A stretch of DNA of 41,549 bases, taken from an uncultured Coxiellaceae bacterium (GTDB lineage: Bacteria; Pseudomonadota; Gammaproteobacteria; DSM-16500). Shown in pieces: positions 31,377 to 37,049 of this stretch; within the stretch, counting starts at the first letter, position 1; the number at the start of each line of letters is the position of its first letter. The stretch lies in assembly GCA_964489265.1 (NCBI GenBank), contig CAZAXX010000011.1, positions 1-41,549 on the forward strand, read 5' to 3'. A program made the position numbers and the translations under genes. The notes beneath the pieces were generated by a model, which worked only from the letters and a program-made list of their open reading frames with translations, ran no database searches and was not told the origin of the DNA.

Positions 31377-32405
31377 TTGCTTATGATTAAATCTCTAACC
31401 TCTTCCGCACTGACTACCTCCATAGCACAAAAAATTCTGAAAGATGTGATGCAATTTCGTCGAATGGTCAGTTTTCAAAAAACATGCGCAGCATCAATTT
31501 GTGAAAACTGTCTTAAACCACACTTACAGCAAGTTATTTCAGCTATTCAAGAGAAACGCCCCATCACATTTGTTTTACCCGCATTTCCAGCAAAATCACC
31601 GAATCCTGCGAAGGTGCTTGGCACACTTCCGGATATGGCTGAACGACTGTCACTAAAATTTTTAAATAGTCTTTGTAAACACATTCAAAAATTACATGTA
31701 CCAGGTGCTCGAATTATTATTTGTTCTGACGGTAGAATTTTTAATGATGTGATAGGTGTGAATGATACTGATGTGACAAGTTATCAAAAAGAATTATCAC
31801 GCTTGATAGAGGAAATGTCGCTCACGTGTATATCTACTTTTAATTTAGATGAGCTATATGAAGGATATGATTTTAATCAAATGCGCAATCAAGTGATGAA
31901 TCAATATGGCGAGTCAATTGAAGTTCTTCAAGAAGCCGTGCGCAATGGAAGTAAATTTCCAAAGAACATGGATGATGCAGAAGTGCATCGACAGTATTGC
32001 GGTATTACTCGTTTTCTAGTGGAAGATGCGCTTCATCCAGGACAGACACTCAGTCGCAGCGCCTTACAAAAAGAATGCAGAAAACGTGCTTATTTCGTTA
32101 TTCAACGCAGCAGAGCCTGGAGTGCATTGATTACAGAATATTTTCCCAATTCAGTTCGGCTTTCAATACATCCGCAGACATGTGGCACACCTAAATTAGG
32201 TATTCGCCTAATGGAAGCTGAAACTTGGATGACACCATGGCATGGTGTTGCTGTTGAAGTTGATGGAAATTTTGTGTTGCTTAAACGCGAACAAGCTGAA
32301 AAATTGGGTGCACGTTTAGTTTATCACGGAGCGCAACCTAGTCATTATGAGTTGAGCGATAAACAAAAACTTTCTAAGCTGCGAGGGATGTTATATGAAA
32401 TGTAA
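31377..32405 (+). CDS. PvcA/IsnA-family isonitrile (isocyanide) synthase (DIT1_PvcA family)
   Basis: The 342-aa size matches the family. The conserved-looking segment ITFVLPAFPAKSPNPAKVLGTLPD is characteristic of pyoverdine-chromophore PvcA/Dit1-type enzymes. The gene sits immediately upstream of, and overlaps by 11 nt, a TauD/PvcB-like dioxygenase, which is the canonical isnA-isnB / pvcA-pvcB arrangement. GGAGA-N8-ATG precedes the start. Confidence 0.6.
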   Translation: MLMIKSLTSSALTTSIAQKILKDVMQFRRMVSFQKTCAASICENCLKPHLQQVISAIQEKRPITFVLPAFPAKSPNPAKVLGTLPDMAERLSLKFLNSLCKHIQKLHVPGARIIICSDGRIFNDVIGVNDTDVTSYQKELSRLIEEMSLTCISTFNLDELYEGYDFNQMRNQVMNQYGESIEVLQEAVRNGSKFPKNMDDAEVHRQYCGITRFLVEDALHPGQTLSRSALQKECRKRAYFVIQRSRAWSALITEYFPNSVRLSIHPQTCGTPKLGIRLMEAETWMTPWHGVAVEVDGNFVLLKREQAEKLGARLVYHGAQPSHYELSDKQKLSKLRGMLYEM

Positions 32406-33231
32406 AACAACATCGATCAAACCTTTTGGCGTACTGATAGAACCTTCGCACTCACTAGATAAAGTGAGTGATCTTAATGTTGATTTTTTGCGGGAAACAA
32501 TTCATCGCGCACATCTTCTGGTATTAAGAGGATTTAACACATTTCAAAATGCCGAATCGTTTGCAACCTATTGCGAAAAATGGGGCGAAATAAGCATTTG
32601 GCCATTCGGAAAAGTGCTCGAGTTAATTGAACAAGACAATCCTGAAGATCACATTTTTGATAATAGTTACGTGCCATTACACTGGGACGGCATGTATCGC
32701 CCGCAAGTTCCTGAATTTCAGATTTTTCATTGTGTGAAAGCACCACTCGCAGGACAAGGTGGCAGAACAACTTTTTCAAATACTGTTTTAGCATTAGAAT
32801 ATGCATCTCCTGAATCAAGAAAACTGTGGGACAAAGTGACTGGGATTTATCAACGAAAAATGGAATTTTATAATAGTAAAACTATTTCACGAATTATTAA
32901 TAAACATCCCCACAGAGATTTCTCTGTGATTCGATATAATGAACCACACACGGAAAGCAAAGGACGGTTTGTGAATCCACCGGAATTAAAATTTACTGGA
33001 ATTGGTAGTGAAGAATTAGCAGAATTCCATCGTGGTTTAACACAAGCGCTCTATGCGCCAAACACTTTTTATGCGCATGAATGGCAAACAGGTGATATCG
33101 TTATTGCAGATAATTTTTCACTTCTGCATGGTAGAGAAGCATTCGTCTCAAAGTCACCACGTCATCTGCAACGAGTGCATGTTTTAAGTAATCCACCACT
33201 CGATAATCCTGGCCTGGAATCTTATAAATGA
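32395..33231 (+). CDS. Fe(II)/alpha-ketoglutarate-dependent dioxygenase, TauD/TfdA family (PvcB/IsnB-like)
   Basis: The facial triad H96-x-D98 (LHWDGMY) and the C-terminal DNFSLLHGREA (family motif DNxxxxHxA, with the distal His) are present, along with SPRHLQR. The 278-aa gene is translationally coupled to both neighbours. Confidence 0.75.
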   Translation: MKCKTTSIKPFGVLIEPSHSLDKVSDLNVDFLRETIHRAHLLVLRGFNTFQNAESFATYCEKWGEISIWPFGKVLELIEQDNPEDHIFDNSYVPLHWDGMYRPQVPEFQIFHCVKAPLAGQGGRTTFSNTVLALEYASPESRKLWDKVTGIYQRKMEFYNSKTISRIINKHPHRDFSVIRYNEPHTESKGRFVNPPELKFTGIGSEELAEFHRGLTQALYAPNTFYAHEWQTGDIVIADNFSLLHGREAFVSKSPRHLQRVHVLSNPPLDNPGLESYK

Positions 33232-34667: not shown

Positions 34668-35821
34668 TGAAAAATTTAATTTTTGTAGCACTCGTCGTTG
34701 CCATGTTCACAATGGGTTGCAACGCCTTTCTAATTGCCGGCCTTCTTCCACAAATAAGTCACACGCTGTCGCAATCTATTGCAATCACTGGGCAAGGAAT
34801 GACTGCATTTAGCTTTTTTTATTTTCTGTCAGCGCCTGTATTTTCTATACTTTTTTCAAAAAAACCCTTCAAGCAAGTGATACAAATTGCATTACTTGTA
34901 TTTCTGCTTGGAAATTTACTTACGCTGCTGTCTACATCAATTACCCTATTTTTGCTTGGCAGATCGCTCGCAGGAATTGCCACTGGAATTTTTACGCCCT
35001 CCTGTCTCACGATGGCCTTTCATTTTGCTGATGAAGCAAACCGGGGGAAACGTTTGAGCATGATTTGGGGCGCGAACAGCGCGGGTGCTGTTTTCGGTGT
35101 ACCCTTCGGGATTTATCTCTCATCACTTTTGAATTGGCAATTGTCTATTGCTTGTTTGATCATATTGAGCTTATTGGTCTTCGTGATTTTTTCGTTGCAA
35201 AATGTGCAAATCAAATTGCCAGTTATGCCATCATTGCGAGAACGATTTTATCTTCTTCTTGATCAAAAAATTATGTTCGTTATTACTATCACTTTTTTTG
35301 CTGCGACAGCCAGTTTAGGACTTTACTCTTACATGGCTGTTATTCAATCGGGAATTTCTCATTCACTTGTTTTGACTATTTTTTCCTGGGGATTGGGCGG
35401 TTTTATTGGAAGTTCGTTTGTGGGATTTTTTATTGATCTCACGAAAAAACCGCAAATGATTATGACATTCATCTTGGTGGGTCTGATAGTCACTTTTATC
35501 ACGATTCCTTTTGTGATGAATTTACCTTACTTCGGATTAATTCCATTTTTTATGTGGGGCGTTTTTGGCTGGGCCATGCCTACCACTCAGCAACATATTT
35601 TATTTGAATTACAAGAAAAACAGGGAAGCATATTAGCTGCGTTAAATGGTTCAGCAATTGGATTAGGCAATGCAGTTGGCACTGCAGTGGGTGGTGCAAT
35701 TATTGCAGCTGGATTTCATGGAATTGAGCTACCTTTTTGTGCCGCTATTTTATTAATTATCGTATTGATAGGTCAGTTTGTTTTTTTGAAAAAGTCAGAA
35801 GGAGTGATAATTCGTGAATAG
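34667..35821 (+). CDS. MFS transporter (12 TM), likely exporter of the cluster product
   Basis: Hydrophobic helices run throughout, and the MFS motif-A-like LLGRSLAGIATGIF is present. The start overlaps the upstream stop (TGATG). Confidence 0.75.
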   Translation: MKNLIFVALVVAMFTMGCNAFLIAGLLPQISHTLSQSIAITGQGMTAFSFFYFLSAPVFSILFSKKPFKQVIQIALLVFLLGNLLTLLSTSITLFLLGRSLAGIATGIFTPSCLTMAFHFADEANRGKRLSMIWGANSAGAVFGVPFGIYLSSLLNWQLSIACLIILSLLVFVIFSLQNVQIKLPVMPSLRERFYLLLDQKIMFVITITFFAATASLGLYSYMAVIQSGISHSLVLTIFSWGLGGFIGSSFVGFFIDLTKKPQMIMTFILVGLIVTFITIPFVMNLPYFGLIPFFMWGVFGWAMPTTQQHILFELQEKQGSILAALNGSAIGLGNAVGTAVGGAIIAAGFHGIELPFCAAILLIIVLIGQFVFLKKSEGVIIRE

Positions 35822-37049
35822 ACCCGTCGTCATTGTGAATCCCTTATCATCAGGAATAGAATTAGCGCCCGCGTTTAAATCCAGAGGAATACCTGCGATT
35901 GCAGTCACACTTAAATCACCTGATTGGGCTGGCTATGGATCCACGCTTCAAACTGCCGACTTTGTTGAGATCATTCCAGATCAAACGAATATTGCAGACA
36001 TACTTGCAAAATATAATCCGCTTGCCATTCTTCCAGGTACCGGAGAAAGCGTTCCTTTAGCAGAACACTTAACAGAAGTCTTAACACCTGAACTTGCCAA
36101 CGATCCAAAAAAATCATTGCATCGATTACATAAAGCACTCATGCAAGATGCTTTGCAAAAGGCTGGCGTTCCTTATCTCAAAACACTCAATACAGCATCT
36201 GAAAATGAAGTGGCAATGTGGATCAAAGAAAATGAATTAAGTGATTCGCCACTCATTGTGAAACCACCGATGTCAGGCGGAAGTGATAACGTCTTTCACA
36301 TTCCAGCCAATGGCGATTGGAAAACGGCTTTCAATCGTGTGTTAACTGAACCTTCACATACCTCTGGAAAAGTGAATGAAACTGTTGTGATTCAAGAACA
36401 AGCGATCGGTACGGAATTTGCTGTTGGTACTGTCTCAGCGAATGGAAAACATTATTTAGCGCATTTAATTAAATACAACAAAGCAACCTATCATGATCGC
36501 AAAACAGTTTACGATTATGTTGAGTTTGTGCCGTATTGTGAAGAAGAACTTGGCGAATTGTTTGCATATACGCAACAAACGCTTGATGCATTAGGAATTC
36601 GTTTTGGAGCAACTCATACAGAAATCATGCTTACCGCAAAAGGCCCGCGGCTCATCGAGTTGGGCGCCAGAATGTGTGGCGGCCCTGTGGTTAGATTTGC
36701 GCGTGAAGCATCCGGAAGTAGTCAAGCAGATAAATTAGTTGAAATCTATGCGGATGGTGATGTGCACACAAAAGAATATTTATTTAAAAAATTAGTTGTT
36801 CCAGTTTTTTTAAAATCACCCGCTAACGGAATCATCTCGAATATGGAAGCGCTTGCTGACACGTCTAAATTACCGACCTTGTTCAACAGTTATCTTTGGT
36901 TTAAAAATGGTGATCGTGTACCGCAAACAGTGGACTATTTAACTAGCATTGGAATTATTGCATTGACGGGAAATCGCGAGTGCATCTTGCAAGATTACAA
37001 AAAAATTCGGGAAATGGAAGCTAACTTGATTGTTCAAGCAATAGATTAA
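35814..37049 (+). CDS. ATP-grasp enzyme (carboxylate-amine ligase-like)
   Basis: PLIVKPPMSGGSDNVFHI is a B-loop-like segment, and LIELGARMCGG matches the ATP-grasp E-x-N/G-x-R-x-GG motif. The GTG start overlaps the MFS gene end by 8 nt. The protein is 411 aa. Confidence 0.65.
   Translation: MNRPVVIVNPLSSGIELAPAFKSRGIPAIAVTLKSPDWAGYGSTLQTADFVEIIPDQTNIADILAKYNPLAILPGTGESVPLAEHLTEVLTPELANDPKKSLHRLHKALMQDALQKAGVPYLKTLNTASENEVAMWIKENELSDSPLIVKPPMSGGSDNVFHIPANGDWKTAFNRVLTEPSHTSGKVNETVVIQEQAIGTEFAVGTVSANGKHYLAHLIKYNKATYHDRKTVYDYVEFVPYCEEELGELFAYTQQTLDALGIRFGATHTEIMLTAKGPRLIELGARMCGGPVVRFAREASGSSQADKLVEIYADGDVHTKEYLFKKLVVPVFLKSPANGIISNMEALADTSKLPTLFNSYLWFKNGDRVPQTVDYLTSIGIIALTGNRECILQDYKKIREMEANLIVQAID

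What the first reader, a model, noticed from the sequence alone, without database searches (positions are those of the whole stretch)
31377..37049. Compact five-gene isonitrile (isocyanide) natural-product operon: isnA/pvcA-like synthase, isnB/pvcB-like dioxygenase, FAD monooxygenase, MFS exporter, ATP-grasp ligase
Five same-strand genes are translationally coupled; each start overlaps or abuts the preceding stop (11-nt, ATGA, TGATG and 8-nt overlaps). The first two form the canonical PvcA/IsnA plus TauD-family PvcB/IsnB pair, which in Pseudomonas (pvcABCD, paerucumarin) and Xenorhabdus/Photorhabdus (isnAB, rhabduscin) converts an aromatic amino acid into a vinyl-isonitrile. Here the pair is followed by a PHBH-fold FAD aromatic hydroxylase, an MFS exporter and an ATP-grasp amide ligase. 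The hydroxylase is functionally analogous to, but not homologous with, the HpaB-type PvcC. This tailoring set differs from the described pvc, isn and rhabduscin clusters, so the product could be a new hydroxylated, amide-conjugated, exported isonitrile. Isonitriles are metal-binding and enzyme-inhibitory warheads; for example, rhabduscin inhibits phenoloxidase. In an intracellular-lifestyle genome such a cluster is unexpected and would be a plausible host-manipulation or metal-acquisition factor. The 132-bp divergent region upstream (31245..31376) is shared with the giant PEP-utilising effector-like gene, and contains an extended -10-like TGcTAAAAT at 31346..31354.
Basis: partly seen in the sequence, partly recalled or inferred. 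Interest (0 to 1): 0.88.

Follow-up and report, generated by a model that had tools for sequence, protein, structure and literature searches.

The report
Legionella-type isonitrile and acyl-histidine gene cassette
This is a real, intact five-gene operon for making a tyrosine-derived isonitrile, but it is the same cassette already found and partly characterised in Legionella pneumophila, so it is a new copy of a known system and not a new pathway.

Summary
Five same-strand genes (31383..37049) overlap by 11, 4, 1 and 8 nt. They encode a PvcA/IsnA isonitrile synthase (PF05141, 2.9e-79), a PvcB/IsnB Fe/2OG dioxygenase (PF02668, with H96-x-D98...H245 intact), a class A FAD aromatic hydroxylase, an MFS exporter and an ATP-grasp ligase.

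The claim of novelty does not hold. The same A-B-C-D-E order occurs in L. pneumophila subsp. fraseri, L. steelei, another Legionella and several MAGs, at 52-85% protein identity. A four-gene A-B-C-E form occurs in more Legionella species and in Bdellovibrionia, Oligoflexia and Obscuribacterales MAGs. Trees of A, C and E agree, so the cassette is inherited or transferred as a unit.

In L. pneumophila these are the long-known iron-regulated, biofilm-induced 'pvcAB' genes. Their cluster was studied by Torring et al. 2017. isnA and isnB gave (E)-4-(2-isocyanovinyl)phenol, and the ATP-grasp enzyme gave N-acyl-L-histidines. An amide-conjugated isonitrile was not reported.

The role of the hydroxylase and the native end product remain inferred. 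I found no Fur box, riboswitch, adjacent LysR gene or compositional sign of recent transfer in the window.

Verdict: new member of a known kind, modest interest.

The parts
31245..31382 (.). Divergent intergenic/promoter region between the 1393-aa PPDK_N protein gene and gene A
   Evidence: Sequence read. Best Fur-box match is 11/19, equal to the background median. No Rfam match. No LysR gene is adjacent, unlike L005, L002 and L027.
31346..31354 (+). Extended -10-like TGCTAAAAT (candidate promoter element only)
   Evidence: Present as described. Promoter-like sites in the region are not above shuffle expectation.
31286..31311 (.). Imperfect inverted repeat TTTACATTGCA-N4-TGTATTGTAAA; possible operator, possibly chance
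   Evidence: 11-nt arms, 82% complementary.
31383..32405 (+). Gene A: PvcA/IsnA-family isonitrile synthase (340 aa; alternative TTG start at 31377)
   Evidence: PF05141 2.9e-79. NCBIfam L-tyrosine isonitrile synthase 308 bits, below the 600-bit equivalog cut-off. PDB 3e59 PvcA and 9dh4/9dhm, E about 2e-78. AF2 model pLDDT 91.6.
32395..33231 (+). Gene B: PvcB/IsnB Fe(II)/2-oxoglutarate dioxygenase (278 aa)
   Evidence: PF02668 8.6e-50. PDB 3eat PvcB 5e-89. H96, D98, H245, R256 and R260 are invariant in 23 orthologues.
33228..34667 (+). Gene C: class A FAD-dependent aromatic (phenol-type) monooxygenase (479 aa)
   Evidence: PF01494 4e-63. NCBIfam NF005531/PRK07190 932 bits against a 530 cut-off. 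Best PDB relatives are VibO, phenol 2-monooxygenase and 3-hydroxybenzoate hydroxylase. It is the most conserved gene of the cassette, with mean identity 75%.
34667..35821 (+). Gene D: 12-TMS-type MFS exporter (384 aa), the facultative member of the cassette
   Evidence: PF07690 3.4e-30. Nearest NCBIfam model is Cmx/CmrA efflux at 121 bits, below cut-off. An orthologue sits between C and E in 7 of the 23 related A-B-C loci compared, plus L018, which lacks A-B-C.
35814..37049 (+). Gene E: ATP-grasp carboxylate-amine ligase of the L-amino-acid-ligase/DdaF type (411 aa)
   Evidence: PF13535 4.3e-12. NCBIfam NF005543/PRK07206 498 bits against a 302 cut-off; DdaF 148 bits against an 840 cut-off. PDB 30vh L-amino acid ligase 4.6e-40. 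75% identical to the L. pneumophila orthologue.

Best explanation
The five genes are an orthologue of the Legionella pneumophila isocyanide cassette (pvcA/isnA, pvcB/isnB, FAD monooxygenase, MFS, ATP-grasp), carried here by an uncultured low-GC bacterium.

Proposed mechanism, step by step:
1. Gene A converts L-tyrosine into tyrosine isonitrile. Family membership is shown; the substrate is inferred from the orthologue.
2. Gene B, an Fe(II)/2-oxoglutarate dioxygenase with an intact H-x-D...H site, oxidatively decarboxylates it to (E)-4-(2-isocyanovinyl)phenol. The catalytic residues are shown; the product is inferred from the L. pneumophila isnA/isnB result.
3. Gene C, a phenol-hydroxylase-type flavoprotein, most probably ortho-hydroxylates the phenol ring to a catechol, playing the part that PvcC/D play in Pseudomonas. 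This step is inference only.
4. Gene E activates a carboxylate as an acyl phosphate and couples it to an amine. In L. pneumophila this yields N-acyl-L-histidines from fatty acids, a second product family and not an isonitrile conjugate. This is inferred by orthology at 75% identity.
5. Gene D exports one or both products. This step is inferred.

The genes are tightly packed with overlapping stop and start codons, so they are very probably one transcript with translational coupling.
For: - Domain and structure-sequence matches support each gene assignment.
- The catalytic triad and Arg residues of B are invariant.
- The same gene order with 52-85% identity occurs in L. pneumophila subsp. fraseri ATCC 33156 (L005), L. 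steelei, Legionella sp. 515359 and MAGs.
- In L005 the cassette sits next to a divergent LysR gene and an F-box protein gene, the L. pneumophila pvcAB neighbourhood.
- Trees of A, C and E are congruent.
- Junction overlaps are conserved in L023 and L025.
- There is no internal + strand terminator.
- Literature: PvcA/PvcB = lpp0236-0237 (PMC4256840). isnAB is listed as a Legionella BGC (PMC5126622). The genes are iron-regulated and biofilm-induced (PMC5835138, PMC11705809). An ATP-grasp (PF13535) forms acyl-histidine via an acyl phosphate in L. pneumophila (PMC11631085, citing Torring 2017). The isnA/isnB product (E)-4-(2-isocyanovinyl)phenol was labelled with tetrazine (PMC13647977).
- The ATP-grasp orthologue stands alone, without A-B-C, in Ca. 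Uabimicrobium and in a proteobacterial MAG. This fits an isonitrile-independent reaction.
- A DOPA-dioxygenase-family gene lies next to the cassette in L027. This is a hint of catechol chemistry.
Against: - The primary paper (Torring et al. 2017) could not be read here. The product assignments therefore rest on secondary citations and my recollection of its abstract.
- The A protein scores 308 bits against the tyrosine isonitrile synthase equivalog model, whose cut-off is 600. Tyr versus Trp specificity is therefore not established by sequence.
- No evidence bears on the substrate of C.
- E is linked to A-B-C in 22 of the 23 related A-B-C loci. The exception, L028, ends at a contig end. E also co-evolves with A-B-C. 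This argues for some functional tie to the isonitrile that acyl-histidine formation in E. coli does not explain.
- The LysR regulator seen in Legionella is absent from the window.
- Co-transcription was not measured.
Confidence: 0.75

Rival explanations
1. The isonitrile is hydroxylated by C and then amide-conjugated by E, for example tyrosine isonitrile carboxylate joined to an amino acid such as histidine. D exports the one final product, a new compound.
For: - E is almost always adjacent to A-B-C (22 of 23 related loci) and its tree matches those of A and C.
- E belongs to the DdaF/L-amino-acid-ligase branch, whose members ligate N-blocked amino acids to amino acids.
- The D/E and C/D junctions overlap.
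Against: - After PvcB-type decarboxylation the vinyl isonitrile has neither a carboxylate nor an amine for an ATP-grasp enzyme to use (established chemistry of PvcB/IsnB).
- The orthologous L. pneumophila cluster is reported to give the unconjugated vinyl isonitrile plus N-acyl-histidines (PMC13647977 and PMC11631085, citing Torring 2017).
- E orthologues exist without isonitrile genes.
- A-B-C may occur without E in L028.
Confidence: 0.15
2. This is the annotation-style reading: a pyoverdine/siderophore biosynthesis locus serving iron uptake.
For: - Legionella reviews call PvcA/PvcB 'pyoverdine synthesis homologues' and report iron regulation (PMC5835138, PMC11705809, PMC4256840).
- Isonitriles and catechols bind metals (PMC13647977 on chalkophore behaviour).
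Against: - PvcA/PvcB make an isonitrile (paerucumarin pathway), not pyoverdine (PMC3639982). The Pfam name is historical.
- No NRPS gene and no Pfam-recognisable receptor gene lies beside the cassette in the window.
- There is no Fur box upstream in the window.
Confidence: 0.07
3. The cassette is a decaying or recently acquired foreign island that is not functional in this organism.
For: - Flanking genes differ in every genome that carries the cassette.
- The cassette crosses phyla.
Against: - All five ORFs are intact and the catalytic residues are conserved.
- GC (0.385-0.409) and GC3 (0.26-0.35) match the other genes of the window (0.375 +/- 0.026; 0.304 +/- 0.036).
Confidence: 0.03

Closest known systems
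Legionella pneumophila isocyanide / N-acyl-histidine gene cluster (pvcA-pvcB-FAD monooxygenase-MFS-ATP-grasp; lpp0236-0237 onward; Torring et al. 2017, doi 10.1002/cbic.201600618)
   Same: Same five genes in the same order and orientation, with tight junctions. Identity to L. pneumophila subsp. fraseri is 59% (A), 72% (B), 78% (C), 60% (D) and 75% (E).
   Different: The window has no divergent LysR regulator gene; a 1393-aa PPDK_N-domain gene sits there instead. The window's cassette belongs to a sister clade with uncultured relatives, not to the Legionella-genus clade. Its products are untested.
Pseudomonas aeruginosa pvcABCD (paerucumarin)
   Same: The PvcA and PvcB homologues are E 2e-78 and 5e-89 to the solved proteins 3e59 and 3eat. 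An aromatic hydroxylation step is encoded next to them.
   Different: The hydroxylase here is a single-component class A flavoprotein (PF01494). It is not the two-component HpaB/HpaC-type PvcC/PvcD. An MFS and an ATP-grasp ligase are added.
Xenorhabdus/Photorhabdus isnA-isnB-glycosyltransferase (rhabduscin)
   Same: The same two-enzyme route gives the vinyl isonitrile aglycone (PMC13005658, PMC13647977).
   Different: There is no glycosyltransferase. Instead there are a hydroxylase, an exporter and an ATP-grasp ligase.
DdaF and other ATP-grasp L-amino-acid ligases (BacD, RizA, PDB 30vh)
   Same: Full-length homology of gene E (30vh 4.6e-40; DdaF model 3.6e-43). The chemistry is acyl-phosphate amide ligation.
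   Different: Gene E scores far below the DdaF equivalog cut-off (148 against 840 bits). It falls in its own NCBIfam subfamily, PRK07206, which is annotated only as hypothetical.
Phenol 2-monooxygenase / VibO / 3-hydroxybenzoate hydroxylase (class A flavoprotein monooxygenases)
   Same: Gene C aligns over the FAD and substrate domains at E 1e-40 to 3e-52.
   Different: Gene C is shorter (479 aa against about 640-665 aa). It belongs to the separate equivalog family NF005531/PRK07190. Its substrate is unknown.

Membership tests
PvcA/IsnA isonitrile synthase (PF05141) | Significant full-length match to the DIT1_PvcA domain | tested here: met
   2.9e-79, 266.9 bits against a 26.4 cut-off, profile positions 3-269 of 273.
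PvcA/IsnA isonitrile synthase (PF05141) | Homology to structurally solved isonitrile synthases | tested here: met
   3e59 at 2.1e-78; 9dh4/9dhm at 1.6e-78.
L-tyrosine isonitrile synthase PvcA equivalog (NF045653) | Score above the curated equivalog cut-off (600 bits) | tested here: not met
   308.3 bits. It is a family member, but substrate identity is not guaranteed by this model.
PvcA/IsnA isonitrile synthase (PF05141) | Enzymatic conversion of Tyr or Trp to the alpha-isonitrile acid | not testable with these tools
   Needs an enzyme assay or heterologous expression.
PvcB/IsnB Fe(II)/2OG dioxygenase (TauD family) | PF02668 match and close homology to PvcB | tested here: met
   8.6e-50; 3eat at 5e-89 over residues 10-275.
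PvcB/IsnB Fe(II)/2OG dioxygenase (TauD family) | H-x-D...H iron-binding facial triad | tested here: met
   H96-W-D98 and H245 (LLHGR) align with the same residues of 3eat and are invariant in 23 orthologues.
L. pneumophila isocyanide/acyl-histidine cassette | Gene content and order A-B-C-D-E on one strand | tested here: met
   tblastn of the five window proteins on L005 (L. pneumophila subsp. fraseri) and other loci.
L. pneumophila isocyanide/acyl-histidine cassette | Orthology (congruent phylogenies of the component genes) | tested here: met
   NJ trees of A, C and E show the same three clades. These are distance trees only, without support values.
L. pneumophila isocyanide/acyl-histidine cassette | Divergently transcribed LysR-type regulator upstream | tested here: not met
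   A LysR gene is present in L005, L002 and L027. None lies next to the cassette or anywhere among the window's ORFs of at least 150 aa. It is also absent next to the closest relatives L023 and L025.
L. pneumophila isocyanide/acyl-histidine cassette | Products: (E)-4-(2-isocyanovinyl)phenol and N-acyl-L-histidines | not testable with these tools
   Needs LC-MS of an expression strain. Literature only (PMC13647977, PMC11631085).
pvcABCD (paerucumarin) cluster | Two-component HpaB/HpaC-type hydroxylase PvcC/PvcD | tested here: not met
   Gene C is PF01494 with no HpaB-family hit, and there is no reductase gene in the cassette.
Rhabduscin (isnAB-GT) cluster | Adjacent glycosyltransferase | tested here: not met
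   No glycosyltransferase domain in the five genes or their immediate neighbours.
ATP-grasp ligases, PRK07206 subfamily | PF13535 match and a score above the NF005543 cut-off | tested here: met
   4.3e-12; 498.5 bits against a 302 cut-off.
Dapdiamide synthase DdaF equivalog (NF041595) | Score above the 840-bit cut-off | tested here: not met
   147.9 bits. It is related but not the same enzyme.
Class A flavoprotein aromatic hydroxylases | PF01494 match with the GxGxxG, GADG and GD(A/C)xH motifs | tested here: met
   4e-63. VGAGPVG, GADGSQS and LAGDACH are read in the translation. G159/D161/G162 and G281/D282 are invariant.

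The most novel reading that the evidence does not exclude
The true end product of the conserved A-B-C(-D)-E cassette may still be unknown. The hydroxylase is the most conserved gene and is always present, and the ATP-grasp co-evolves with the isonitrile genes. Together they could build a catechol-isonitrile, or an isocyano-acyl-histidine type metal-binding molecule, that heterologous expression in E. coli missed. The cassette's spread among amoeba parasites (Legionella) and lineages with predatory members (Bdellovibrionia, Oligoflexia, Obscuribacterales) could reflect a shared role in attacking or surviving inside other cells.
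Probability: 0.2. Interest if true: 0.55.

Novelty: new member of a known kind. Interest (0 to 1): 0.3.

Why it matters
The window adds a diverged copy of the Legionella isonitrile cassette in an uncultured bacterium. This copy is 52-85% identical to its orthologues and lacks the LysR regulator gene.

The comparison made here shows three things:
- A-B-C is the constant core of the cassette.
- The ATP-grasp gene is a nearly constant partner.
- The MFS gene is optional.

It also shows that the unit has crossed phylum boundaries. That is useful context for anyone trying to settle the native product and role of the L. pneumophila 'pvcAB' genes, which reviews still describe loosely as siderophore genes. 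It is not a new pathway type.

Tried and rejected
- **Fur box.** A search of 31245..31382 gave a best match of 11/19, equal to the window-wide median. There is no sequence support for Fur control.
- **Riboswitch or leader RNA.** Nothing was found in Rfam at E <= 1 beyond chance hits, and nothing at gathering score in the whole window.
- **Compositional sign of recent transfer.** Cluster GC and GC3 lie inside the range of the other genes.
- **Taxonomy of the window.** I searched with the Dcp-type M3 peptidase (4704..6797). The best named relatives are Rhizomicrobium at about 70% identity, which is uninformative. The 'intracellular lifestyle' of the source therefore remains an inference from ankyrin, TPR and orphan genes. 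No tRNA was found.
- **Cys3His motif of gene A.** I first took C35-x4-C40-x2-C43-x3-H47 as specific to the cassette. It is invariant in 51 close homologues and absent from 3e59 and 9dh4. A search of 50%-identity representatives then showed it in 37 of the 150 listed family representatives, many of them larger fusion proteins. It is a widespread subfamily trait. The AF2 model (pLDDT 91.6) gives no coordinates, so I could not check whether the residues cluster in space.
- **P450 and formamidase-like genes.** I asked whether the window's P450 (8292..9749) or formamidase-like gene (11312..12628) belongs with the cassette. Neither has a homologue within 7-10 kb of the cassette in the related loci compared.
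- **Primary paper.** Torring et al. 2017 is not held, either by PMC id or by DOI. Searches for lpg0174-0178 returned only an unrelated typo.

Full report
**Observation**

The five ORFs are present exactly as described:
- 31377/31383..32405
- 32395..33231
- 33228..34667
- 34667..35821
- 35814..37049

All are on the + strand. The stop/start overlaps are 11 nt, 4 nt (ATGA), 1 nt (TGATG) and 8 nt. Gene E starts at a GTG preceded by AAGGAG. Gene A most likely starts at ATG 31383, which has GGAG 8 nt upstream, and the public gene call on this same 41,549-bp contig is 340 aa.

The intergenic region is 132 bp to the TTG start, or 138 bp to the ATG start. It contains TGCTAAAAT at 31346..31354. Promoter-like sites are not enriched over shuffled sequence (25 against 20.1 +/- 4.0), so that motif is only a candidate. 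No + strand terminator-like hairpin lies inside the operon.

**What the genes are**

- **Gene A** matches PF05141 DIT1_PvcA at 2.9e-79. It matches the solved isonitrile synthases 3e59 (P. aeruginosa PvcA) and 9dh4/9dhm at about 2e-78. It scores 308 bits on NCBI's L-tyrosine isonitrile synthase equivalog model, below the 600-bit cut-off. It is therefore a clear family member whose substrate is not fixed by that model.
- **Gene B** matches PF02668 at 8.6e-50 and PvcB (3eat) at 5e-89. The iron ligands H96-x-D98 and H245 align with those of PvcB and are invariant in 23 orthologues, as are R256 and R260.
- **Gene C** is a class A flavoprotein monooxygenase. It matches PF01494 at 4e-63 and the NCBIfam equivalog NF005531/PRK07190 at 932 bits against a 530 cut-off. 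Its nearest solved relatives are VibO, phenol 2-monooxygenase and 3-hydroxybenzoate hydroxylase.
- **Gene D** is an MFS_1 transporter. Its nearest models are drug-efflux pumps.
- **Gene E** is an ATP-grasp ligase. It matches PF13535 and the NCBIfam subfamily PRK07206 at 498 bits against a 302 cut-off. It shows full-length similarity to the dapdiamide ligase DdaF model (148 bits, far below that model's cut-off) and to a solved L-amino-acid ligase, 30vh (4.6e-40).

**Relatives elsewhere**

I scanned one genome per species with the ATP-grasp protein. This returned 20 loci at 63-77% identity. A tblastn of all five window proteins on these loci and on contigs found through PvcA homologues gave the following.

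The full A-B-C-D-E order occurs in:
- L. pneumophila subsp. fraseri ATCC 33156
- L. steelei
- Legionella sp. 515359
- a 2.8-Mb gammaproteobacterial MAG
- a Bdellovibrionia MAG
- the window's two closest relatives, Logan SRR34292222 and JGI 3300020930 (PvcA 77% and 75% identical)

A four-gene A-B-C-E form without the MFS occurs in:
- L. steigerwaltii, L. shakespearei and other Legionella
- Bdellovibrio, Oligoflexia, 'delta' and Obscuribacterales/Cyanobacteria MAGs

One contig shows A-B-C followed by toxin-antitoxin genes and then the contig end. Two genomes carry the ATP-grasp orthologue with no isonitrile genes within 10 kb. These are Candidatus Uabimicrobium, where the order is MFS, ATP-grasp, short-chain dehydrogenase, and a proteobacterial MAG, where the gene lies among clpX, lon, an epimerase and a GNAT gene.

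Mean identities to the window are 60% (A), 72% (B), 75% (C), 63% (D) and 72% (E). Neighbour-joining trees of A, C and E show the same three clades:
- the window with its uncultured relatives and gammaproteobacterial MAGs
- the genus Legionella, with the Obscuribacterales sequences nested inside
- a Bdellovibrionia/Oligoflexia/delta group

The cassette therefore evolves and moves as a unit. Flanking genes differ in nearly every genome. In the two closest relatives the junction overlaps are 11/4/4/8 nt, against 11/4/1/8 in the window. This supports an operon with translational coupling, although transcription itself was not tested.

**What is already known**

In L. pneumophila the cassette lies beside a divergent LysR gene and an F-box protein gene. 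Its first two genes are the 'pvcA/pvcB' homologues lpp0236-lpp0237 (PMC4256840). They are iron-regulated and strongly induced in biofilm cells (PMC5835138, PMC11705809, PMC11004079). isnAB was listed among Legionella biosynthetic gene clusters in 2016 (PMC5126622).

The cluster was studied chemically by Torring, Shames, Cho, Roy and Crawford (ChemBioChem 2017, 18:638). I could not open that paper. From my recollection of its abstract, an orphan isocyanide-associated cluster that is upregulated in infection gave a known tyrosine-derived isocyanide and a family of new N-acyl-L-histidines.

Two papers I could read agree with this. PMC13647977 states that tetrazine labelled (E)-4-(2-isocyanovinyl)phenol made by a host expressing isnA and isnB. 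PMC11631085 states that an ATP-grasp enzyme (PF13535) forms acyl-histidine in L. pneumophila through an acyl phosphate. L. pneumophila's PvcA/PvcB pair is followed by a PF13535 gene. The studied cluster is therefore, by strong inference, the orthologue of the window's operon.

**Most likely mechanism**

1. A makes tyrosine isonitrile.
2. B decarboxylates and desaturates it to the vinyl isonitrile.
3. C probably adds an ortho-hydroxyl to give a catechol. This is inference, supported only by its phenol-hydroxylase relatives, by its constant presence, and by a DOPA-dioxygenase-family neighbour in one locus.
4. E makes N-acyl-histidines, or a related amide, through an acyl phosphate.
5. D exports.

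It is chemically awkward, because PvcB removes the only carboxylate. It is also not what the orthologue gave. I keep it as a minority rival, because E is linked to A-B-C in 22 of the 23 related A-B-C loci and co-evolves with them.

**Regulation**

I found no Fur box (best match 11/19, equal to background). I found no Rfam element and no LysR gene in the window. A weak inverted repeat lies at 31286..31311. GC and GC3 of the five genes match the rest of the window, so the cassette is not a recent arrival.

**Verdict**

The functional call 'isonitrile operon' is right. The claims of a new tailoring set and of an unexpected occurrence are not. This is a new, diverged member of a known and partly characterised cassette, and interest is modest. 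The open points are the substrate of the hydroxylase, the reason the ATP-grasp travels with the isonitrile genes, and the native product. These are open for the whole family, not special to this window.

Noticed in passing
window 27063..31244 (-): A 1393-aa protein transcribed divergently from the cassette. Only its N-terminal ~350 residues match anything: the PPDK_N / PEP synthase nucleotide-binding domain, at 7.5e-22. The remaining ~1000 residues have no family match. PDB hits are weak (best 4.4e-08, PEP synthase). This exact sequence is not in the protein collection.
   Followed up: partly
window 31485..31526 and 32181..32183 (gene A residues C35, C40, C43, H47, C267): A C-x4-C-x2-C-x3-H motif plus C267 is invariant in 51 close PvcA homologues but absent from both solved isonitrile synthases (3e59, 9dh4). 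The Cys3His motif occurs in 37 of the 150 listed 50%-identity family representatives, so it is a widespread subfamily trait. It may be a metal site. I did not find it described in the papers I could read.
   Followed up: partly
L018 8857..12036 (Ca. Uabimicrobium sp. HlEnr_7) and L012 9965..11230 (Proteobacteria MAG BP9.bin86): Orthologues of the ATP-grasp ligase (63% and 70% identity) occur without any PvcA/PvcB/monooxygenase gene within 10 kb. In Uabimicrobium the order is MFS, ATP-grasp, short-chain dehydrogenase.
   Followed up: partly
L011, L022 (Cyanobacteria/Obscuribacterales MAGs); L009, L017, L020, L016 (Bdellovibrionia, Oligoflexia, Bdellovibrio, delta MAGs): The A-B-C-E cassette occurs at 55-79% identity in phyla far from Legionella. 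The Obscuribacterales copies nest inside the Legionella clade in all three gene trees, which suggests transfer between lineages. The taxon labels come from the record titles only.
   Followed up: partly
L027 5550..6803: A DOPA 4,5-dioxygenase-family gene (PF08883) and a LysR gene lie divergent from an A-B-C-E cassette. This is a hint that a catechol is formed by the pathway.
   Followed up: no
window 8292..9749 (+) and 11312..12628 (-): A cytochrome P450 and an acetamidase/formamidase-family protein lie about 20 kb upstream of the cassette. Isonitriles hydrate to formamides, but neither gene has a homologue near the cassette in the related loci compared, so a link is unlikely.
   Followed up: partly
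window 1..27000 and 37046..40157: Most ORFs of 250-700 aa have no Pfam match. An ankyrin-repeat protein (22316..24454, -) and a TPR protein (26004..26927, -) are present. This fits an effector-rich host-associated genome. However, the one conserved housekeeping-type gene tested (Dcp peptidase, 4704..6797) has its best named relatives in Rhizomicrobium at about 70% identity, so the taxon is unresolved.
   Followed up: partly
window 40262..41470 (+) and L023 1711..2925: A TIGR03862/HI0933-like flavoprotein lies 3 kb downstream of the cassette in the window. It is 83% identical to a gene 7 kb upstream of the cassette in the closest relative. This is the only flanking gene shared between them.
   Followed up: no
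window 37046..37996 (-): A convergent 316-aa orphan gene overlaps the stop codon of the ATP-grasp gene by 4 nt. This leaves no room for an intergenic terminator between the two.
   Followed up: no
L002 9853..9955: A nested palindromic element of about 100 bp (27-nt arms 96% complementary, enclosing 20-nt arms 95% complementary) lies between the LysR gene and pvcA in the 2.8-Mb gammaproteobacterial MAG.
   Followed up: no
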